DNA from: a virus
Reading direction: 5' to 3' (one strand)
Length of the DNA stretch: 64,000 nucleotides
Virus genome (UHGV): UHGV-0117634
Positions 4,312-64,000 of this stretch are shown here, piece by piece. How positions within the stretch are numbered: the first letter of the stretch is position 1; every line of letters starts with the position of its first letter. A program made the position numbers and the translations under genes. The notes beneath the pieces were generated by a model. It was not told where the DNA came from. It ran no database searches and saw only the letters and a list, made by a program, of their open reading frames with translations.

Positions 4312-4589
4312 GAATCTCTCCGATATATTTCATATTCAAAATGTTTATTTGTCAAGGTAAACATGTAAACTGTGGACAAATTATCAATTGCTAATGCAAA
4401 CATCTCAACATTGTCTTTTGATATATGTTCAAACTTTACTTCATGTCCCTTGTTGATGAGTACTTTACCGAACTGTTCTATCTTAGTCAAGCACTCATTT
4501 ACAAATTTTTCTCTACTTTTTTCTGAATAGAAGGGTGTAAAACACTCCTTCAGATAGCTATCAATCAGTTTCGAACGGACAGTCATCAT
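4308..4589 (-). CDS. hypothetical protein
   Basis: ORF track, 93 aa. Confidence 0.45.
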   Translation of the reverse strand: MMTVRSKLIDSYLKECFTPFYSEKSREKFVNECLTKIEQFGKVLINKGHEVKFEHISKDNVEMFALAIDNLSTVYMFTLTNKHFEYEIYRRDS

Positions 4590-57284: not shown

Positions 57285-57952
57285 TTATGGGACACCTACT
57301 GAAGAAGAGTTGGAAGAACTTAATAGATATGGTTCCCCATCTGAAGAGGAAGAGAAAGAACTCCGAAGAATGGGAAGCAATTACTAAGAAATGTTTTAAG
57401 GATTTGATAGAGATGAAAAAGTTTGAACTTGAAAGAAAGTATCTGGTACTGAGTCTAGATGATATCAATACATATTTTGACGAAAGTGAGAAGTGGTCTT
57501 TAGACTTACTTGTTAATCGACTTAAGATGGAACGAGAAGATTCAGGTAAAGAGCCACTTGAAGGTGTCTTTGTCAAGAAGTCTTATCCGTTCTTTGAAGA
57601 TACTTTGAAGAAACTTGAGATGTATGTTAAGCAGCAGAACCGTAAAGAGTTCTCTATGATTTCTCTTGGTGGACAACAAATGCTGGTTATGGAAGATATA
57701 AACCCTAAGAGAACCAACAAAGGTGTTTGTATCAAGGTCACAGGTAAAGAAGAATTTATCAATATTGGACATTTGAAACATGTCAGTGAAGGTGGCTCCA
57801 TTTCACTCAATGGTAACCATTATTACATACGAACATACCCAATTAAGGGTTCACAGATTATGATTACAGTCATGGATGATGGTACTGGATTCACACACTT
57901 CTTCCAAACTACAAAGCAAGCTATACAAGCAATCATTGAAGAATTGTGTTGA
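57281..57952 (+). CDS. hypothetical protein
   Basis: ORF track, 223 aa; last plus-strand gene before the repeat region. Confidence 0.45.
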   Translation: MIMGHLLKKSWKNLIDMVPHLKRKRKNSEEWEAITKKCFKDLIEMKKFELERKYLVLSLDDINTYFDESEKWSLDLLVNRLKMEREDSGKEPLEGVFVKKSYPFFEDTLKKLEMYVKQQNRKEFSMISLGGQQMLVMEDINPKRTNKGVCIKVTGKEEFINIGHLKHVSEGGSISLNGNHYYIRTYPIKGSQIMITVMDDGTGFTHFFQTTKQAIQAIIEELC

Positions 57953-57961
57953 TTAATATTT

Positions 57962-58011
57962 AGCCCCTTAAAATGGATTCGCTAGAATCTATCTCATAGG
58001 GGCTTTTTATT
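57962..58011 (+). terminator. Candidate terminator after the plus-strand block (AGCCCCT ... AGGGGCT + TTTTTATT)
   Basis: 7-bp stem with a long loop followed by a T-run; weaker than a classical terminator. Confidence 0.35.
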
Positions 58012-58019
58012 GAGTAAAA

Positions 58020-59600
58020 TTTACGAAATTTATATTTTTATAAAATTTGGGATTCACTCCGTTCATCTTGGGTCACCATGATATGTGATAAAATATCTAT
58101 ACCCTTCTAAACACCCTCTCTAAGCATCATCTCTATATAGTATTATATAGTATCTATATAGCCTCTTAGTCCCTAAATAGTGCTCTCTATATAACCCTCT
58201 ATAAAGCCTTCTAAGCCTACCATTAATCAACCCTATACAATCACCTTCCTAGCCTCTTCCTAGCCCCTATAGCCATCTTAATCTCTAGGTTATCTGTGTT
58301 ACTTAACAGTAACCCATTAGGTAAACGATAGTACCCTATATAGCAGAATCACTAGGTATTACTAAGCCTCTATATAGACTGTTATATAACACTAAACAGG
58401 TATTCCCTGTAAAGGCTTATCCTACAAGGTCTAACACGGTACTAACAAGGTATCTTATAAGCCTGTTAATTCCTGTTTTATATAAGATAGTGTATAGATA
58501 GCTATTCAGTTCTATAAAATTTTTATAAAATAGACTAGGTAGGCCACTTTTTAGGTTCTTGGGAGTATCTGAAAAATATCTACAAAGGCTGTATATCTGC
58601 TTGGTAGCCCTTAACAGCCCTGTAACATCCCCTTTGCAAAATCTTAAAATATCATTAACAATCCCTTAACAACTCTCTCAAGCTCTTAACATCTCTTCAG
58701 AGTTCTTAACAGTTTCTTAACAGGACTAGCAAGGGCTTAACAAGTCTGTAATATTGCTTACAAGAGTCTAACAAGTTGCTTATAAGTTGCTAAATAGTTA
58801 AATCTTAAGAGTTATTTTGTTAAGATAATTAACAAGATGCTAACAAGTTCTAAATCTTTTTAACAAGCTATTAACATGGTCACTATCTCTTGGTCTATAG
58901 TTCCCTATCCCTCTTAGTGACTCTTTATAAAGCCCTCTATAAAGCTCTGTATAGCTCTGTATAGCCTCTTCTAAGCTTCTCCCTAGTAACTACACCCCAA
59001 ATACCTGTATAGCTCTTTATAGGGCTTTCTAGGGGCTTATACAGGGACTTCAAAGTGTCTAACAAGCTTTTAACATACCTCTAACAAGGATTTAACAAGG
59101 GGCTAACAAGTCTCTAATAAGCATAACTATGTTGCATTTGTTAAGATTTTGTTAAGAGAATGTAAAGGGGGCTAACTTTTACGTAACTTTATAGCCTCTT
59201 TTACGTAACTTTGAAGTAACTTCATAGCCCCTATAACATGTTTTTTAGTGACTATCAAGCCCTTTTTAGATATTCACAAGATACTAACGAGATGATAAAG
59301 CTTACACCCTTATAAGATTCTTTTAAGGCTCTAGGAAGCTCTATAGAGGGCTTTTAAGAGTGGGTTAATATGATTGGTTAAGTTGAGTTGATAAGCCGTT
59401 ATAGAGCGTTATAGAGCGTTTAAGGGATTGCCCTTCCCTTTCGGGTTATGGGCTTATATTTAAGGGATTGGTAACAATACCAATTAGTTGATTTGATAAG
59501 AGGTTATAGAGTAATCTATAGAGTTATTGCTCTAAATGTCTGGTAAGAGTCTAGAAAGGGATTGTATGAGGATTCGATAGAGTCCTATCTTATAGACGTT
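58020..59600. repeat. 1.6 kb non-coding region of short degenerate direct repeats with a strand-skew switch
   Basis: No ORF of 60 aa or more; repeat families CTATA(A/T)AG, CTTAACA, TAACAAG, CTTCTAAG; tandem CTCTGTATAG x2 and CGTTATAGAG x2; plus strand is G-depleted up to about 59300, then G-rich with inverted motifs. Confidence 0.6.
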
Positions 59601-59622
59601 AAAAAGCCCCATTGAAGGGGCT
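59600..59622 (-). terminator. Rho-independent terminator ending the minus-strand early gene array
   Basis: On minus strand GCCCC-TTCAAT-GGGGC followed by TTTTT; a second GC hairpin at 59647-59661. Confidence 0.6.
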
Positions 59623-59663
59623 TGTATAGGGTCTGGGGCTATTTGCCCCGTTGCGGCGACTTG

Positions 59664-59915
59664 TTAGTCATTATAACCAAATTTTTGATGGTAAAGCGTG
59701 ATAAGGGAACCATCCCAATAGTAAGACACTACACCATTTTTCAAGACTTCCTGTTTGACTTCTTTCCAGAAGTTTTCAGTTGGTTTATAGTCCTGAATAG
59801 TTGCCTTCAGACACATATCAACCATACCGAAAGCATCACCAGTGCCAACCATATCAAATTTAACATCTAATACGTTAAAACCAAAAGTGTTTACAGTTGC
59901 GCGGATAGTTGCCAT
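59664..59915 (-). CDS. hypothetical small protein (early array)
   Basis: ORF track, 83 aa; conserved upstream cassette. Confidence 0.45.
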   Translation of the reverse strand: MATIRATVNTFGFNVLDVKFDMVGTGDAFGMVDMCLKATIQDYKPTENFWKEVKQEVLKNGVVSYYWDGSLITLYHQKFGYND

Positions 59916-59985
59916 TTTTTGAATCTCCAGTTTAGGATTTTGGGTTAGTGGGGAAGTCTCCCTCCCCGTTGAAAGTAATATTAAT
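59916..59985 (-). promoter_or_regulatory. Conserved upstream cassette 1 (SD plus variable GC hairpin)
   Basis: minus-strand ...CCTAAACTGGAGATTC(A/T)AAA-ATG core; hairpin GGGGAAGTCTCCCTCCCC. Confidence 0.4.
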
Positions 59986-60244
59986 TCATTGCGGCGTATG
60001 TTGCAAGTCTTTTTTCTTTGTATTTTGTAAGAATCTCACAAGATAAAACGTCATACTTTACAATTGCTTCAGATTTAGTTAGACCAAAATGGCTTATAAT
60101 TTCACCATTCATGAATCCAACTACCTCATAAGATTCTGCGATGATTTCCCCGTTAAACCAGTCACTTTCTATACGTTTGCAAAGTTGGATATCTTCTTTG
60201 TCAGTACCAATCTGTAACAGGATAGTGATTTCTGCGTTATTCAT
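59981..60244 (-). CDS. hypothetical small protein (early array)
   Basis: ORF track, 87 aa. Confidence 0.45.
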   Translation of the reverse strand: MNNAEITILLQIGTDKEDIQLCKRIESDWFNGEIIAESYEVVGFMNGEIISHFGLTKSEAIVKYDVLSCEILTKYKEKRLATYAAMN

Positions 60245-60310
60245 TTCTAGTCTCCAGTTTAGGATTGTTGGGGAAGGCCATTCCCTCCCCGTTGATGAGT
60301 ACTTTATAGA
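60245..60310 (-). promoter_or_regulatory. Conserved upstream cassette 2
   Basis: Same core; hairpin GGGGAAGGCCATTCCCTCCCC shows compensatory changes; AGTACT palindrome. Confidence 0.4.
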
Positions 60311-60831
60311 GTTCTGATGATTTCGTCAAGCTCTTTTTCCATATCTTTTACAGATTTTTCGTGTAGTTTAATCATATCATTTAATGCTTGCCCTAACTGT
60401 AAGTTAAAATCACTGTCTTTTGTCTCGCTTAGATAGATGTTTTCTACGTCGTAAAGCTTGCAAGGGTGGCAACCTGTACCCATCGCCATAATCCCATGTG
60501 CCAACGGCATGATATACATGTTATGGGACTTGATAGAGCGCTCATAAGCCATTTTAAAGTGGTTTAACTCTTCTTTTGATGATTTGATGCAATGTTCACA
60601 AAGTTCTGCGACTAGTGCCATAAAATCAGGGAGGATTGTTGCAACAGCTTGCATAAAGTTTTCTGCTGTTACTACCTTAACGTTTTGGTGATGTACATAA
60701 TATTTTTTATCCTCCCCTTTCGTAATGACTGCAAACAACTTGTCATTGCAGCGAAATTCGAAAGTGTCTTTTACTGGCTTGCTCATCACGGCATTGGAAC
60801 GGATATGATTGATAGCTTGAAACTTATTCAT
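60304..60831 (-). CDS. hypothetical protein (early array)
   Basis: ORF track, 175 aa. Confidence 0.5.
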   Translation of the reverse strand: MNKFQAINHIRSNAVMSKPVKDTFEFRCNDKLFAVITKGEDKKYYVHHQNVKVVTAENFMQAVATILPDFMALVAELCEHCIKSSKEELNHFKMAYERSIKSHNMYIMPLAHGIMAMGTGCHPCKLYDVENIYLSETKDSDFNLQLGQALNDMIKLHEKSVKDMEKELDEIIRTL

Positions 60832-60915
60832 TTTTAGATTCTCCAGTTTAGGATTGTTTTATGGCTTGAATAGAACTATACAGAATTACTTAGTGTCTTG
60901 CAAGTACTTTTTCGC
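60832..60915 (-). promoter_or_regulatory. Conserved upstream cassette 3 with candidate promoter TTGCAA-N17-TATAGT
   Basis: Read on minus strand; -35 overlaps the AAGTACTT palindrome. Confidence 0.4.
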
Positions 60916-61028
60916 TTATCTATAAAGAATCTTTTAAGTGAATCCCTTTAGATAAACCCCTCGAACAAATGTACTATTGTCAAGGGGCAATGTCAACAGT
61001 TTTTTCAAAGAATTTTGTAAGTTGTTGA

Positions 61029-61370
61029 TTAGCTTATAAAGATTTTTTCAGGCTTGACGTAGGTTAATGCTTGTTTTTTAAGCAAATCAGACCAAATCAA
61101 AGCGGCAATGTGACTATAGCCCTTTTCTCTTAGTTCCCGCATAGCTTCTTTGCGAGTCTCAAAACGTGTAGCATAGTATTCAGTGTTAAGTGTAGTTTTG
61201 TTCCCTTCATTGTCAACATGCACAACCTGCATTACTTGGAAAGGGCTTACATCTTCCCCCCTGTTCCATTGCTCAAAGTATTTGAGGCATTGCATAGGTG
61301 TCATTTTGTCGCTTACTTGAGTGGACCAAGATGAATTCTCTTTATCAGTAATGACTGTTACGTATGCCAT
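61029..61370 (-). CDS. hypothetical protein (early array)
   Basis: ORF track, 113 aa. Confidence 0.5.
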   Translation of the reverse strand: MAYVTVITDKENSSWSTQVSDKMTPMQCLKYFEQWNRGEDVSPFQVMQVVHVDNEGNKTTLNTEYYATRFETRKEAMRELREKGYSHIAALIWSDLLKKQALTYVKPEKIFIS

Positions 61371-61432
61371 TTTTAGATTCTCCAGTTTAGGATTGTTGGG
61401 GCTTGCTTGCCCCGTTGATAAGTACTTTACTT
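61371..61432 (-). promoter_or_regulatory. Conserved upstream cassette 4
   Basis: Core plus hairpin GGGGCTTGCTTGCCCC plus GTACTTT element. Confidence 0.4.
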
Positions 61433-61452
61433 GTTTTGATTTTCAGTGTCAA

Positions 61453-61683
61453 TCATTTTTCTATGATTATTTCATATTGACCATCGACACTATCAAAATA
61501 AATTCCGTCATCATCTTCTGATTTGAAGTAACATTGTATATCATCGCTTTTTGGGTAGTCAAGCCTTGCAATTTGGCAAGCCTCTATAGCATTTTCTTTA
61601 CTTCCTGTAAACTCTTCAAGTCCTTTGAAGTCCCATTCAGTACCATTTGACAAGGAAAGAATAAGATAGATTGTTGTAAGCAT
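61453..61683 (-). CDS. hypothetical small protein (early array)
   Basis: ORF track, 76 aa; AGAGG SD; different upstream element. Confidence 0.45.
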   Translation of the reverse strand: MLTTIYLILSLSNGTEWDFKGLEEFTGSKENAIEACQIARLDYPKSDDIQCYFKSEDDDGIYFDSVDGQYEIIIEK

Positions 61684-61701
61684 GTTTTAAGCCTCTTGTA
61701 A

Positions 61702-61722
61702 GCCCCTGTGCGGGGCTTTTTT
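61702..61722 (+). terminator. Plus-strand-oriented hairpin plus T-run inside the minus-strand array (antisense terminator?)
   Basis: GCCCC-TGTGC-GGGGC followed by TTTTTT on the plus strand. Confidence 0.35.
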
Positions 61723-61746
61723 AGTTAACTAATAAGATTCTATAGA

Positions 61747-62304
61747 TTATGCTTCAAAGTCGCTTAGATTGCTTTCTACGACGTTGGATTGCATAGTCTC
61801 GAAAATGTCACAATAAACATTATTCATTTCATCGCTACGTTGTACCATTGCTGCAATGTTGCGTAATTCATCCGGTACATACCCAAGGTTACGATTTTGT
61901 AAAGATGGTACAAAAAACGGGGCATACATAGCATTGAATTCAGTTGTGTAAAGCTTTTTAATCCAAGATTTATCAAAGTGTTCTGTAAAACTTGCTACGT
62001 CGCTCATATTCTCACAACTCCAGTCATCTTGTAAATCTTCGTCTGGAATGTCAAGCTCTAAGATAACGATATTCTGTGATTTCATTTGAAACGCTGCTGT
62101 AATACTTGCGCTATCCAGAGCATTTTTTATACCCTCATCAGTGATTTGTTCTGCGTCCATATCTTCTACATCATAGAACTTGCTAACAGGGTAAACATAA
62201 AAACACCCATCACTATCAGAGCAATTCCAAGCCCCTGAAGGTTTTTCTCCACCACTTAGCAGGTTTGCAAAGTTTTCTTGAGTAGTTCCGTGAAAGCATT
62301 TCAT
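61747..62304 (-). CDS. hypothetical protein (early array)
   Basis: ORF track, 185 aa. Confidence 0.5.
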   Translation of the reverse strand: MKCFHGTTQENFANLLSGGEKPSGAWNCSDSDGCFYVYPVSKFYDVEDMDAEQITDEGIKNALDSASITAAFQMKSQNIVILELDIPDEDLQDDWSCENMSDVASFTEHFDKSWIKKLYTTEFNAMYAPFFVPSLQNRNLGYVPDELRNIAAMVQRSDEMNNVYCDIFETMQSNVVESNLSDFEA

Positions 62305-62365
62305 TTTAGAATCTCCAGTTTAGGATTGTTGGGGCTTGCTTGCCCCGTTGATGAGTACTTTAATA
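62305..62365 (-). promoter_or_regulatory. Conserved upstream cassette 5
   Basis: Core plus hairpin GGGGCTTGCTTGCCCC plus GAGTACTTT. Confidence 0.4.
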
Positions 62366-62387
62366 TATCTAAAATCAGTGTCAAACG

Positions 62388-62406
62388 TTTTTTTTTTTTT
62401 TTTTTT
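62388..62406. repeat. Homopolymeric T19 tract (A19 on the coding strand) overlapping the stop of 62405..62806
   Basis: 19 consecutive T directly visible. Confidence 0.8.
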
Positions 62407-62806
62407 AAAGTTCTGCGTAAATTGTGTCACAGATATCTTCAAAATCTTGTTTAGACAAATTACGTTGTAACCATGTAGCAAAGAAATCAGCAATTGCAAA
62501 ATTAGCGTCGAAATCTACAGATAGCCACACTTTAACAGCAAATCGAAACATTTTCAAGTCTAATTCCTTATTAAGGACTTTTGACTTTGCCAGCATTTCA
62601 GCCATTTCATATTGTGCGCCGTCAAGTGTAGCACCATTTGCAACGTTTGCAAGAGAATTTTTGATGTTTTCAACGTCTAAAATTACACCTTGAATTTTAC
62701 CAATAATATTATGCAGTGTCTCATCAGGTGCAGTTGATGTGATAGAGTTAATACGGTTTACGGTCAAGCGTGCTTTCAGAATTGCGATATCTTTATTTGT
62801 AGCCAT
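62405..62806 (-). CDS. hypothetical protein (early array)
   Basis: ORF track, 133 aa. Confidence 0.5.
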   Translation of the reverse strand: MATNKDIAILKARLTVNRINSITSTAPDETLHNIIGKIQGVILDVENIKNSLANVANGATLDGAQYEMAEMLAKSKVLNKELDLKMFRFAVKVWLSVDFDANFAIADFFATWLQRNLSKQDFEDICDTIYAEL

Positions 62807-62892
62807 TTTTGAATCTCCAGTTTAGGTTAGTGATAAAGTTCTTTATCTGGGGCTTATCTTATCGAACTATAAACCCCATGTAAAGTACTTTG
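62807..62892 (-). promoter_or_regulatory. Conserved upstream cassette 6 (long variant) with perfect palindrome AAAGTACTTT
   Basis: Variant B: AGTGATAAA...CTGGGGCT...AACCCC plus GTAAAGTACTTTG. Confidence 0.4.
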
Positions 62893-63165
62893 TTAAGCAA
62901 GATGTAACTTTTTACCGTTAACAATAATGTAACTTACTCCACTATTACTGTAAACATCTTGATAAATTCTGCGTAACTTGCCTAAATATCGAACTTTCCA
63001 AGATGTAGGAATTTTCTTCCCGTATCCGGTAGCGGTTTTCTGTAAACCTGCTACTTGCCAATCTAATAAATGTTGCTCCGCTTGCAAGTCTTCAAAGTTT
63101 AATACACCGTCTACATAGTGCTTTAAAATTACGTTTAAAGTGCGGCCATTGTTAGTTGCAAACAT
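62893..63165 (-). CDS. hypothetical small protein (early array)
   Basis: ORF track, 90 aa. Confidence 0.45.
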   Translation of the reverse strand: MFATNNGRTLNVILKHYVDGVLNFEDLQAEQHLLDWQVAGLQKTATGYGKKIPTSWKVRYLGKLRRIYQDVYSNSGVSYIIVNGKKLHLA

Positions 63166-63260
63166 CTTTGAATCTCCAGTTTAGGATTGTTGGGGCTTGC
63201 TTGCCCCGTTGATGAGTACTTTACTTATTTTGGTTTGGTCTTGCAAGTACTTTTTAAAAC
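63166..63260 (-). promoter_or_regulatory. Conserved upstream cassette 7 with candidate promoter TTGCAA-N17-TAAAGT
   Basis: Read on minus strand; both promoter hexamers overlap AGTACT palindromes. Confidence 0.4.
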
Positions 63261-63584
63261 TTATTTTCGTTTGCTTATTTCTTGAACGATAACAGGATAA
63301 TAATCTTTTAAATCAGTGACTTGTAAAGCTTCTAATAACGCATTGTAACTATTAATAAGTTGATAATCACCGTTTAAAATGTCTTGTATCTTGTACATGT
63401 TTACACTGTATCGAAAACTCATCTCTAAACGTTCCAACTGACTAGCGTCTAAACGCTCTAGGAAGCCCGTTACAAGATTATTTTTAACCTGTAGTGTAGT
63501 TGCATCACTTGCCAGCTTATGCGCCTGATAAGCCTTATAGAGTGCGACAATTGAAATCAGAATTGCAATGCCAGATAGTAACAT
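63261..63584 (-). CDS. hypothetical membrane protein (early array)
   Basis: 107 aa; N-terminal hydrophobic helix; start 4 nt after upstream stop with AAGGAAAG SD. Confidence 0.45.
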   Translation of the reverse strand: MLLSGIAILISIVALYKAYQAHKLASDATTLQVKNNLVTGFLERLDASQLERLEMSFRYSVNMYKIQDILNGDYQLINSYNALLEALQVTDLKDYYPVIVQEISKRK

Positions 63585-63588
63585 TTTA

Positions 63589-63876
63589 TTACTTTCCTTT
63601 ATGTGACAGTTTACCAGTGTGACTAATTTCGAATGAATCTATCATATCTTTTGTGGATTTAATAACAGATTTGTTAGTGTTATCATAAATATCCACCTGA
63701 AGCAATGGCTTTTTATATCCTTTTGTGTAATTCCATACACAAATCACAACTTCTTTACCATTAATCTTTCCATGATACCATTCCATAACATCTTGTGAAC
63801 GTCTATGGGACTCAATAAAGGAAATGTTTTGTAGTAGTTGGCTTAATTTTGAGCGTACATTAGCAGCAATTTTCAT
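63589..63876 (-). CDS. hypothetical protein (early array)
   Basis: ORF track, 95 aa. Confidence 0.45.
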   Translation of the reverse strand: MKIAANVRSKLSQLLQNISFIESHRRSQDVMEWYHGKINGKEVVICVWNYTKGYKKPLLQVDIYDNTNKSVIKSTKDMIDSFEISHTGKLSHKGK

Positions 63877-63965
63877 TTTAGATTCTCCAGTTTAGGATTG
63901 TTTAGTGATAAATCTCTTTATCTGGGGCTATCTTATCAGCCTGATAACCCCATGTAAAGTACTTT
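63877..63965 (-). promoter_or_regulatory. Conserved upstream cassette 8 (long variant) with perfect palindrome AAAGTACTTT
   Basis: Near-identical to cassette 6. Confidence 0.4.
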
Positions 63966-64000
63966 ATTAGTTAATTTCAAAGATTGTTACATAGCCATCA

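What the first reader, a model, noticed from the sequence alone, without database searches (positions are those of the whole stretch)
59916..63965. Conserved 60-90 nt cassette upstream of at least 8 consecutive small genes, with compensatory hairpin changes and AGTACT palindromes
Each gene in the minus-strand array is preceded by a near-identical leader (...AACAATCCTAAACTGGAGATTC(A/T)AAA-ATG) and, upstream of it, a GC hairpin whose sequence varies while pairing is kept. Further upstream lies AAAGTACTTT, a perfect 10-bp palindrome in two cassettes, overlapping candidate -35/-10 hexamers. This looks like a family of early promoters with a shared operator and a structured 5' UTR.
Basis: seen in the sequence. 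Interest (0 to 1): 0.55.

Follow-up and report, generated by a model that had tools for sequence, protein, structure and literature searches.

The report
Promoter–hairpin–RBS cassettes flanking phage orphan genes
The repeated 80–100 nt element is a self-contained "promoter + hairpin + ribosome-binding leader" cassette placed before small genes of unknown function in a Felix O1-like phage; it is the same kind of element as the PeSL cassettes of T4-type phages, and gene gain and loss between related phages happens at the cassettes.

Summary
The window is a Mooglevirus/Felix O1-like (Ounavirinae) phage. Eight of ten consecutive minus-strand small genes (59664–63876) carry the leader CCTAAACTGGAG (8 copies, 0.31 expected). 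It occurs nowhere else in the window or in the rest of the Moogle genome. Each cassette has an A/T-rich tract, a sigma-70-type promoter (TTGACA/TTGCAA/TTTACA, 17 bp, TAnnnT), a GGGG…CCCC-clamped hairpin and a fixed SD leader.

Across 12 related genomes I found 116 cassettes. The hairpins show compensatory changes and many G·U pairs, which favours a sense-strand fold. The hairpin lies at three different positions relative to the promoter:
- just after the start site (type A);
- across the spacer and −10 (type B, where it is part of a roughly 21-bp interrupted hairpin spanning the whole promoter);
- inside the spacer (type C).

Gene content between cassettes varies. BLAST breakpoints fall in cassettes (45 of 58), and about 40% of cassettes are closest to a non-orthologous copy.

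This matches the PeSL (promoter-early stem-loop) cassettes of phage RB49/phi1. I found no description of them in Felix O1-like phages; there the sequences were only listed as "direct repeats".

The AGTACT "operator" idea is not supported: the palindrome is kept in only about half of the copies. Promoter activity, hairpin function and recombination are inferred, not shown.

The parts
63874..63967 (-). Cassette 1, type B. −35 TTTACA 63958–63953; −10 TAAGAT 63935–63930; core hairpin GGGGTTATC…GATAGCCCC 63951–63924; long interrupted inverted repeat about 63967–63908; leader CCTAAACTGGAG 63896–63885; ATG 63876.
63163..63255 (-). Cassette 2, type A. AAAAAGTAC tract; −35 TTGCAA 63246–63241; −10 TAAAGT 63223–63218; ACTCATCAAC; hairpin GGGGCAAGCAAGCCCC 63207–63192; leader 63185–63174; ATG 63165.
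62804..62893 (-). Cassette 3, type B. −35 TTTACA 62884–62879; −10 TAAGAT 62861–62856; hairpin GGGGTTTAT…ATAAGCCCC 62877–62849; inverted repeat extends to about 62833; leader 62826–62815; ATG 62806.
62302..62404 (-). Cassette 4, type A. Preceded by an A19 tract (62386–62404). −35 TTGACA 62384–62379 (16-nt spacer); −10 TAAAGT 62362–62357; hairpin 62346–62331; leader 62324–62313; ATG 62304.
61368..61452 (-). Cassette 5, type A. −35 TTGACA 61452–61447; −10 TAAAGT 61429–61424; hairpin 61413–61398; leader 61391–61380; ATG 61370.
60829..60912 (-). Cassette 6, no hairpin. AAAAAGTAC; −35 TTGCAA 60903–60898; −10 TATAGT 60880–60875; leader 60852–60841; ATG 60831. A further TTGACA-17-TACATT promoter-like site lies upstream at 60996–60968.
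60242..60329 (-). Cassette 7, type A. −35 TTGACG 60329–60324 (inside the end of the upstream gene); −10 TAAAGT 60306–60301; hairpin GGGGAGGGAATGGCCTTCCCC 60290–60270; leader 60263–60252; ATG 60244.
59913..60006 (-). Cassette 8, type A. −35 TTGCAA 60006–60001; −10 TAATAT 59983–59978; hairpin GGGGAGGGAGACTTCCCC 59967–59950; leader 59936–59925; ATG 59915.
59664..63876 (-). Array of ten small genes of unknown function: 63589–63876, 63261–63584, 62893–63165, 62405–62806, 61747–62304, 61453–61683, 61029–61370, 60304–60831, 59981–60244, 59664–59915. They fall in ten different PHROG families, all 'unknown function', and have no Pfam match above cutoff.
59601..59649 (-). End of the array. A type-A-like hairpin remnant GGGGCAAATAGCCCC (59649–59635) is followed by the only hairpin with a T-run on this strand, AAGCCCCTTCAATGGGGCTTTTT (59623–59601). 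The homologous site is annotated as a terminator in Moogle and Michonne.
   Evidence: Felix O1 terminator t23

Best explanation
The elements are PeSL-type composite regulatory cassettes: self-contained early expression units placed in front of small accessory genes of unknown function.

Each unit has four parts:
(i) an A/T-rich tract that usually holds the stop codon of the upstream gene;
(ii) a host sigma-70-type promoter;
(iii) a hairpin clamped by GGGG…CCCC;
(iv) a fixed translation-initiation leader, AACAATCCTAAACTGGAGAWTCWAAAATG.

Inferred mechanism:
- Host RNA polymerase starts at every cassette soon after infection, so each gene is expressed whatever its neighbours are.
- The hairpin acts at the RNA level on the sense strand.
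- In type A it would be the 5'-terminal stem-loop of the cassette's own mRNA, about 2–4 nt from the predicted start. That position is the one known to protect mRNAs from 5'-end-dependent decay (established knowledge, not tested here).
- In all types it is also an intercistronic stem-loop in read-through RNA from the upstream cassette. There it most likely serves as a decay barrier, processing site or attenuator that insulates neighbouring units.
- Because all units share 60–100 bp of near-identical sequence, homologous recombination between cassettes inserts, deletes and swaps whole gene modules and homogenises the cassettes themselves.

Shown here: the anatomy, its conservation, covariation of the hairpins, restriction to one array, and the coincidence of indel boundaries with cassettes.
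Inferred: promoter activity, start sites, the role of the hairpin, and the recombination mechanism.
For: Promoter:
- −35, a 17-nt spacer and −10 TAnnnT are kept in 46 type A and 55 type B cassettes of 12 genomes.
- The T and A at the start of the −10 lie in the hairpin loop of type B and are invariant while other loop bases vary.
- Felix O1 array ORFs 16, 20, 21 and 22 peak at 5 min.

Hairpin:
- All 28 distinct type B hairpins have 7–11 contiguous pairs. All 24 distinct type A hairpins begin at the G-run that follows CAAC/CAAG.
- Type B stem: 90.7% of cells paired, 4 pairs changed on both sides; slid controls ≤63%.
- Extended 21-pair structure: 92.8% paired, 8 pairs and 61 cells changed on both sides, 0 of 500 shuffles as high. 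This includes GGGG/CCCC→GGUG/CACC in Erwinia phage phiEa21-4.
- Internal G·T pairs outnumber A·C by 24 to 4. The sense strand folds better in 23 of 28 type B hairpins.

Modularity:
- The array holds 4–15 cassettes per genome.
- Accessory genes (families 34, 35, 37, 38, 39, 42, 43, 46, 47, 51, 52) each sit between cassettes.
- Five gene families are preceded by different cassette types in different genomes.
- 45 of 58 internal BLAST segment ends fall in cassettes, which cover 19.6% of the region. Adjacent segments overlap in the leader.
- 39 of 94 cassettes are closest only to non-orthologous copies. Type B copies within one genome are as alike as orthologues are (9.8 vs 9.8 edits, against 12.0 for unrelated pairs).
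- Michonne has one cassette fused directly to the next with no gene between.

Match to PeSLs: the definition is. The same layout is seen directly in RB49.
Against: - No transcription start, transcript end or promoter activity has been measured for any of these cassettes.
- The Felix O1 RT-PCR is end-point data and puts array ORFs 17, 19 and 23 at 25 min.
- No single hairpin function fits all three positions. Some cassettes lack a hairpin altogether (window gene 60831; HP1 L003 2735), so it is not essential for expression.
- Indel boundaries would fall between genes under any mechanism that moves whole genes, so the breakpoint enrichment is not independent proof of cassette-mediated recombination.
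- The cassettes compared are related sequences, and the arm alignments were anchored on the stem base. The covariation statistics are therefore inflated.
- For type A, the sense strand does not clearly fold better than the antisense strand (11 vs 9).
Confidence: 0.68

Rival explanations
1. One reading: early promoters controlled through a shared operator, the palindrome AAAGTACTTT (or the pair TAAAGnnCTTTA flanking the type B hairpin), bound by a dimeric phage or host repressor. The hairpin would simply be a structured 5' UTR.
For: - AAAGTACT is enriched: 14 matches against 5 expected, 10 of them in the array.
- It overlaps the −35 or −10 hexamer.
- Type B carries a second copy, TAAAG-AG-CTTTA, just after the hairpin, at about +2 to +14.
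Against: - Dyad symmetry is kept in only 26 of 55 type B and 20 of 45 type A cassettes, whereas promoter hexamers and the GGGG/CCCC clamp are nearly invariant.
- The enrichment comes from copies of one repeat, not from independent sites.
- When the upstream site changes G→T, the downstream site changes C→A. That breaks the symmetry of each site but keeps the two complementary to each other (pair 6–49: GC 36, UA 6).
- In type B and type C the hairpin is not in the cassette's own 5' UTR.
Confidence: 0.08
2. The hairpins are mainly transcription terminators or attenuators that isolate each gene unit from upstream transcription. This is the function proposed for PeSL stem-loops in RB49/phi1.
For: - Arbiol et al. 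report that one PeSL stem-loop reduced lacZ expression about as much as rrnB T1.
- The hairpins are intergenic and G+C-rich.
- Annotators of phage ASO1B labelled the same hairpin as a terminator, predicted by WebGeSTer.
Against: - No hairpin is followed by a T-run; the flanks are AACAATCC or AGATAAAG. The scan found no terminator-like site on the − strand at any cassette.
- In type A, 46 of the 116 cassettes, the hairpin lies about 4–25 nt downstream of the cassette's own predicted start. An efficient terminator there would silence the gene it precedes.
- The one hairpin with a T-run on this strand lies at the end of the array (59623–59601).
Confidence: 0.2
3. The hairpins are RNA processing sites (RNase III-type) that cut read-through polycistronic early RNA into stable monocistronic mRNAs, as in the T7 early region.
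For: - Type B forms an interrupted helix of about 21 bp in three segments over about 60 nt. It has covarying pairs and sense-strand G·U pairs.
- There are no terminators between genes, so read-through RNA is expected.
Against: - Type A and type C stems are only 4–8 bp, too short for RNase III by established knowledge of its substrates.
- There is no Rfam match.
- No cleavage data exist.
Confidence: 0.2
4. The GGGG…CCCC hairpin is a DNA-level signal (cruciform or single-strand hairpin) recognised by a recombination protein that moves cassettes site-specifically, in the manner of an integron.
For: - Arbiol et al. raise this possibility for PeSLs.
- Breakpoints lie at cassettes.
- Cassettes are homogenised within genomes.
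- Cassette fusions occur.
Against: - The bias of G·T over A·C (24 to 4) favours one strand, which is not expected for a double-stranded cruciform.
- Junction overlaps lie in the leader, not at the hairpin.
- Cassettes without a hairpin still bound gene modules.
- No integrase-like gene was found among the ten array proteins.
Confidence: 0.07
5. The repeats are inert leftovers of tandem gene duplication, with upstream regions copied along with paralogous genes.
For: The repeats are tandemly arranged in one orientation.
Against: - The ten downstream genes belong to ten different PHROG families.
- The functional positions (−35, −10, stem pairs, SD) are the conserved ones.
- The design persists from coliphages to Erwinia phage phiEa21-4 with a changed consensus.
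Confidence: 0.02

Closest known systems
PeSL (promoter-early stem-loop) cassettes of T4-type phages RB49/phi1 (Arbiol et al. 2010, PMC2839356; Comeau et al. 2014, PMC4122927)
   Same: Shared features:
- an A/T-rich tract holding the upstream stop codon;
- a sigma-70-like promoter;
- a G-tract…C-tract stem-loop at variable positions (in the spacer, over the −10, or after the −10);
- an SD and start codon at the 3' end;
- a location before small orphan genes in a plastic region;
- indels between relatives at the cassettes.

RB49 cassettes read directly show AAAAGTTG-TTGACA-GGGG…CCCC-TATAAT…GGAGAATCAAAATG. The window has AAAGTAC-TTGCAA/TTTACA…GGAGAATCTAAAATG.

The RB49 PeSL profile's best hit in the 64-kb window is cassette 1 (E = 0.014). 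Reciprocal profile hits between RB49 and phiEa21-4 all fall on cassettes, and the two share the 18-nt word CCCATCGAAACGAAACAA.
   Different: - The host genome is an Ounavirinae phage (about 88 kb), not a T4-type phage.
- All copies sit in one roughly 5-kb array next to the terminal repeat, rather than about 50 copies spread over several plastic regions.
- The leader is much more uniform.
- Type B is part of a long interrupted hairpin of about 21 bp covering the whole promoter.
- Sequence similarity to RB49 PeSLs is marginal, so homology is not established.
- Promoter or terminator activity and mini-circles have not been tested here.
'Direct repeats' listed in the Felix O1 genome paper (Whichard et al. 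2010, PMC3185647) and DR_1–DR_9 in the wV8 GenBank record
   Same: These are the same sequences. The 57-bp repeat CTTTACATGGGGCTTAAAAGTCTGTAAAGTAAGCCCCAGATAAAGAGCTTTACCACT is a type B cassette. The 39-bp repeat TTGACACTGGTTTTTAGATAGATTAAATTACACATCAAC is a type A promoter.
   Different: They were reported only as repeats. No promoter, hairpin or recombination role was assigned. The Felix O1 paper's own promoter list does not include them.
5'-terminal stabiliser stem-loops of bacterial and phage mRNAs (ompA-type; established knowledge, not tested here)
   Same: In type A the hairpin starts 10 nt after the −10 hexamer, so about 2–4 unpaired nt would precede it in the transcript.
   Different: The start site is unmapped, and types B and C place the hairpin upstream of the cassette's own start.
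RNase III processing sites between T7 early genes (established knowledge)
   Same: Intercistronic hairpins in an array of early genes transcribed by host polymerase. Type B has an interrupted helix of about 21 bp.
   Different: Here every gene also has its own promoter, type A stems are too short, and no cleavage evidence exists.
Morons of lambdoid phages and integron gene cassettes
   Same: Single accessory genes carried with their own expression signals and gained or lost as units (comparison made).
   Different: Morons have no shared flanking repeat. Integrons use attC sites and an integrase; no integrase is evident here.

Membership tests
PeSL cassettes (Arbiol et al. 2010) | Sigma-70-like early promoter consensus within the repeat | tested here: met
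   −35 TTGACA/TTGCAA/TTTACA, 17-nt spacer and −10 TAnnnT in 46 type A and 55 type B cassettes. Sequence evidence only.
PeSL cassettes (Arbiol et al. 2010) | A/T-rich region upstream of −35, usually holding the stop codon of the upstream gene | tested here: met
   AAAAAGTAC, CTAATAAAGTAC and AAAAAAGAC tracts with TAA stop codons.
PeSL cassettes (Arbiol et al. 2010) | Stable stem-loop, often polyG…polyC, at variable positions relative to the promoter | tested here: met
   GGGG…CCCC clamp. Three positions are seen: after the −10 (A), across spacer and −10 (B), inside the spacer (C). Covariation.
PeSL cassettes (Arbiol et al. 2010) | Shine-Dalgarno sequence and start codon of the downstream gene at the 3' end | tested here: met
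   CTGGAG, then 7–10 nt, then ATG in all 8 window cassettes.
PeSL cassettes (Arbiol et al. 2010) | Concentrated in a plastic region, immediately upstream of orphan genes | tested here: met
   All copies lie in one array. There are none elsewhere in the window or in the rest of Moogle. The ten proteins are all of unknown function.
PeSL cassettes (Arbiol et al. 2010) | Insertions, deletions and replacements between close relatives are bounded by the cassettes | tested here: met
   Gene-order maps; 45 of 58 segment ends fall in cassettes, with overlaps in the leader; cassette type changes before the same gene.
PeSL cassettes (Arbiol et al. 2010) | Demonstrated promoter activity, stem-loop termination and circular excision products | not testable with these tools
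   Needs reporter assays and outward-facing PCR.
PeSL cassettes (Arbiol et al. 2010) | Resident in a T4-type phage genome, or sequence homology to RB49/phi1 PeSLs | tested here: inconclusive
   The genome is Ounavirinae, not T4-type. Cassette BLAST finds only Felix O1-like records. The RB49 profile hits cassette 1 at E = 0.014, and there is one shared 18-nt word.
Intrinsic (Rho-independent) terminator | G+C-rich hairpin immediately followed by a run of T/U | tested here: not met
   Flanks are AACAATCC or AGATAAAG. No − strand terminator-like site is found at any cassette.
Repressor operator (palindromic) | Dyad symmetry conserved across copies and relatives | tested here: not met
   AAAGTACTTT is intact in 26 of 55 type B cassettes; AGTACT in 20 of 45 type A cassettes.
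RNase III processing site (T7 early type) | Roughly two helical turns of interrupted double-stranded RNA between cistrons, with cleavage by RNase III | tested here: inconclusive
   Type B has 21 pairs in three segments. Types A and C have only 4–8 bp. Cleavage cannot be tested here.
5'-terminal mRNA stabiliser stem-loop | Stem-loop within a few nucleotides of the transcript's 5' end | tested here: inconclusive
   In type A the hairpin starts 10 nt after the −10. The start site is not mapped. This does not apply to types B and C.
Any Rfam RNA family | Match to a curated covariance model | tested here: not met
   No match up to E = 1 in 57500–64000.

The most novel reading that the evidence does not exclude
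PeSL-type cassettes are not peculiar to T4-type phages. They would be a shared, exchangeable 'plug' for accessory genes used by unrelated enterobacterial myoviruses (Krischvirus RB49/phi1 and the whole Ounavirinae subfamily). The Ounavirinae and RB49 cassettes would then descend from a common element or still exchange through co-infection, so that orphan genes flanked by cassettes move between phage families.
Probability: 0.25. Interest if true: 0.65.

Novelty: new member of a known kind. Interest (0 to 1): 0.45.

Why it matters
- Felix O1-like phages are widely used for Salmonella and E. coli typing, biocontrol and therapy. Their transcription programme is still largely unknown; the Felix O1 genome paper says its temporal control is not known.
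- These cassettes give about 8–15 testable early promoters per genome.
- They explain a set of unexplained "direct repeats".
- They mark the part of the genome where accessory, possibly host-takeover or anti-defence, genes are swapped.
- If recombination at the cassettes is confirmed, the PeSL mechanism of modular shuffling extends beyond T4-type phages. Arbiol et al. left that question open in 2010.
- The cassettes would also be a natural, insulated insertion site for engineering these phages.

Tried and rejected
- Rfam search of 57500–64000 at E ≤ 1 gave nothing.
- Pfam on the ten proteins gave only sub-threshold noise. PHROGs gave ten different 'unknown function' families.
- Literature searches for Felix O1 promoters, stem-loops, transcriptomes and PeSL outside T4-type phages found no functional description and no start-site data. 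Two of these searches were too loosely framed and returned unrelated papers.
- A second small hairpin, GAUAAA-GAGA-UUUAUC, at the predicted 5' end of type B transcripts is weak (z −0.75 to −1.65). Its 5' half is invariant while its 3' half varies without compensation. It was rejected as an independent hairpin and reinterpreted as part of the long inverted repeat.
- A 3-bp UCC/GGA stem that would sequester the SD is predicted in every leader. It is too weak, and it is broken in the ACCTAAACTGGAG variants, so it was not pursued.
- The MAFFT alignment of type B (A1) places a gap that shifts stem register between two classes. It could not be used for pair counting, so stem-anchored arm alignments were used instead (A2, A3).
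- The AGTACT operator, the terminator reading and the duplication-relic reading were considered and downgraded, as set out under the rival explanations.

Full report
**Identity of the window**

The region 59600–64000 matches Felix O1-like myoviruses (Ounavirinae). The best match is Citrobacter phage Moogle, at 87.6% identity over the whole query. In all, 216 phage records match, and most of them cover only 60–75% of the query in 3–6 pieces. In Moogle the homologous stretch is a run of 'hypothetical protein' genes downstream of rIIB, the spanins and a macro-domain gene. It ends at an annotated terminator and a roughly 1.7-kb non-coding gap.

**Check of the observation**

- CCCTAAACTGGAG-type leader: CCTAAACTGGAG occurs 8 times in 64 kb. 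All copies are on the − strand between 59925 and 63896, against 0.31 expected. Each lies 7–10 nt before an ATG.
- The array has ten consecutive genes. Two lack the cassette. One is 63261–63584, which starts 1 nt after the upstream stop. The other is 61453–61683, which has a different upstream hairpin.
- Seven of the eight cassettes contain a GGGG…CCCC hairpin, with five different stems.
- The 10-bp palindrome AAAGTACTTT is present at 62882–62891 and 63956–63965.

**Anatomy**

I collected the homologous arrays of eleven relatives: Moogle, ESh21, HP1, phiSUSP1, LNA1, Felix O1, KMM4, Henu11, Michonne, wV8 and ASO1B. With the window these hold 116 leader copies. They fall into three groups.

*Type A (46 copies)*
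- Layout: A-rich tract, −35 TTGACA/TTGCAA/TTGACG/TTGACT, 17 nt (once 16), −10 TAAAGT/TAATAT/TAGTAT/TAAATT, then ACTCATCAAC, a hairpin, and AACAATCCTAAACTGGAG + 7–10 nt + ATG.
- The hairpin always begins at the G-run that follows CAAC/CAAG, which is 10 nt after the −10.

*Type B (55 copies)*
- Layout: TAAAGTRC, −35 TTTACA, 17 nt, −10 TAnnnT, (A)AGCCCC, AGATAAAGAGCTTTAYC, then the leader.
- The hairpin's 5' arm lies in the spacer. Its 3' arm covers the end of the −10 and the discriminator.
- The first two −10 bases (T, A) sit in the hairpin loop and are invariant while other loop bases vary. That argues for a real −10 element.

*Other (15 copies)*
- Two are type C: TTGACA-A-GGGGC…GCCCC-TACTAT, with the hairpin entirely in the spacer.
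- Several have a promoter and leader but a truncated hairpin or none, including the window's gene 60831.

A combined pattern search for a promoter plus a GGGG…CCCC hairpin finds 7 sites in the window, all inside the array. The leader is absent from the rest of the window and from the remaining 24 kb of the Moogle genome.

**Is the hairpin real?**

- Window 5' regions fold with z-scores of −1.9 to −3.1.
- All 28 distinct type B hairpins keep 7–11 contiguous pairs from the GGGG/CCCC base.
- All 24 distinct type A hairpins fold. Their stems include GGGGC/GCCCC, GGGGU/GCCCC, GGGGAG/CUCCCC, GGGGAGG/CUUCCCC, GGGGAAG/CUUCCCC, GGGAGG/CCUCCC and GGGA/UCCC.
- On a stem-anchored alignment of type B arms, 90.7% of cells pair and 4 of 10 pairs change on both sides. 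Controls slid by one to three columns pair in at most 63% of cells.
- Type B is also part of a larger inverted repeat: UAAAG-nn-CUUUA-CA-U-GGGG… / …CCCC-A-GA-UAAAG-AG-CUUUA.
  - On 48 distinct sequences, including four from Erwinia phage phiEa21-4, the 21-pair structure is 92.8% paired.
  - Eight pairs and 61 cells change on both sides, and 0 of 500 shuffles reach these values.
  - In phiEa21-4 the clamp itself changes from GGGG/CCCC to GGUG/CACC.
  - An outer pair switches between G-C (36), U-A (6) and G-U (3).
- Internal G·T pairs outnumber A·C by 24 to 4. The sense strand folds better in 23 of 28 type B hairpins, but only 11 of 20 type A hairpins.

I conclude that pairing is under selection, most likely on the sense strand and therefore in RNA.

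Caveats: the sequences are related, and the arm alignments were built around the stem base. The statistics overstate independence.

**The AGTACT palindrome**

It is intact in 26 of 55 type B and 20 of 45 type A cassettes. The variants (AAAGTGCTTT, AAATTGCTTT, TAAAGTATT, TAAATTACA) break the symmetry, while the promoter hexamers and the clamp stay fixed.

In type A, AGTACT is simply −10 TAAAGT plus ACT. In type B, AAAG-TA-CTTT is the junction of the two outer 5' arms of the long inverted repeat. The operator idea is not supported.

**Modularity**

- Gene-order maps show a common backbone (families 1–10). Accessory genes (34, 35, 37, 38, 39, 42, 43, 46, 47, 51, 52) are present in some genomes only, and each sits between cassettes. 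Arrays hold 4 to 15 cassettes.
- The same gene is preceded by type A in some genomes and type B in others. This holds for families 5, 7, 34, 38 and 39.
- When the window array is compared with each relative, 45 of 58 internal BLAST segment ends lie inside cassettes, which cover 19.6% of the region. After collapsing ends into clusters the count is 14 of 20. Neighbouring segments overlap by about 30 nt in the shared leader.
- 39 of 94 cassettes are most similar only to non-orthologous cassettes. Type B copies within one genome are as alike as orthologous copies are (9.8 vs 9.8 edits, against 12.0 for unrelated pairs). This indicates homogenisation.
- Michonne has one cassette whose ATG runs straight into the next cassette.
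- The ten window proteins belong to ten different PHROG families of unknown function, so the repeats are not by-products of gene duplication.

**Comparison with what is known**

The design matches the PeSLs of coliphages RB49 and phi1. Those have:
- a sigma-70-like promoter with an A/T-rich upstream region;
- a stem-loop 'generally involving GGGG…CCCC' at several positions relative to the promoter;
- an SD and start codon at the 3' end;
- a location before orphan genes in plastic regions;
- a proposed role as recombination linkers that also produce mini-circles.

Reading RB49 directly shows cassettes such as AAAAAGTTGTTGACAGGGGGTCACCGATCCCCTATAATGCACCCATACCGAAACGAAAGGAGAATCAAACATG.

Sequence similarity is weak but falls in the right places.
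- A profile of 14 RB49 PeSLs has its best hit in the window on cassette 1 (E = 0.014).
- Reciprocal profile hits between RB49 and phiEa21-4 all fall just upstream of gene starts; 7 of the 8 are on identified cassettes (E = 0.003–0.45).
- Those two phages share the 18-nt word CCCATCGAAACGAAACAA just after the hairpin.
- This could reflect common descent, exchange, or convergence on the same host machinery. I leave it open.

BLAST with single cassettes finds only Felix O1-like records: 252 records and 1378 places for type B.

In the Felix O1 genome paper the same sequences appear only as 57-bp and 39-bp 'direct repeats', and its promoter list does not include them. The wV8 record labels them DR_1–9. 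The ASO1B record labels one 'promoter' followed by 'terminator'. I found no paper applying the PeSL concept outside T4-type phages, apart from passing mentions.

**Mechanism**

I favour cassettes that act as autonomous early expression units.
- The hairpin would work in RNA. In type A it would be a 5'-terminal protective stem-loop. In all types it would also be an intercistronic barrier or processing element in read-through RNA.
- A strong terminator role is unlikely. No hairpin has a T-run, and in type A such a terminator would sit just downstream of the cassette's own start.
- The array's only hairpin with a T-run on this strand is at its end, 59623–59601.
- The shared 60–100 bp would be the substrate for homologous recombination that shuffles modules.
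- Felix O1 RT-PCR gives partial support for early expression: ORFs 16, 20, 21 and 22 peak at 5 min, and ORFs 17, 19 and 23 at 25 min.

None of the activities has been measured.

**Verdict**

This is a real, well-conserved element. It is best classed as a new member of the PeSL kind, in a phage subfamily where it has not been described.

Noticed in passing
window 57960–59660: A non-coding stretch of about 1.7 kb lies between convergent transcription units. It is packed with short direct repeats (CTATAAAGC, CTGTATAGC, TAACAAG…). The 570-bp terminal repeat annotated in phage HP1 maps to window 58603–59172 at 88% identity. The physical genome end therefore probably lies about 500 bp downstream of the cassette array.
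   Followed up: partly
window 4448–4496 (− strand): TTGACT-17-TAAAGTACTCATCAAC lies inside a coding region. It is a copy of the type A promoter and initial transcribed sequence, without the hairpin or leader, and may be an internal promoter.
   Followed up: no
window 61700–61718: Gene 61453–61683 has no cassette. It is preceded by a reversed-polarity hairpin, AAGCCCCgcacaGGGGCTT, which scores as an intrinsic terminator only for the + (antisense) strand.
   Followed up: no
window 62386–62404 (− strand): A run of 19 A lies just upstream of the −35 of cassette 4. HP1 and ESh21 have only 6 A at this position. It may be a slippage-prone tract or a sequencing artefact.
   Followed up: no
L014 (Erwinia phage phiEa21-4) 5700–12300: The same array exists in this distant Ounavirinae member with a shifted consensus. 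The clamp is GGTG…CACC, the leader is AACAACCCTTAYAAAGGAATCAAAACATG, and some −10 elements lie in the hairpin loop. Its gp16 cassette shares an 18-nt word with RB49 PeSLs.
   Followed up: partly
L009 (Michonne) 153–262: Two type B cassettes lie in tandem with no gene between. The ATG of the first is fused to CTTTACATGGGG of the second, which looks like a recombination scar.
   Followed up: partly
phage database hits: One record named Staphylococcus phage SA1 (GU169904) and one named Campylobacter also carry the cassette. These are probably mixed or mislabelled assemblies rather than true cross-host occurrences.
   Followed up: no
window 60968–60996 (− strand): The 190-nt spacer before gene 60831 holds extra promoter-like sites (TTGACATTGCCCCTTGACA…TACATT) and a CCCC…GGGG inverted repeat upstream of the cassette promoter.
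   Followed up: no
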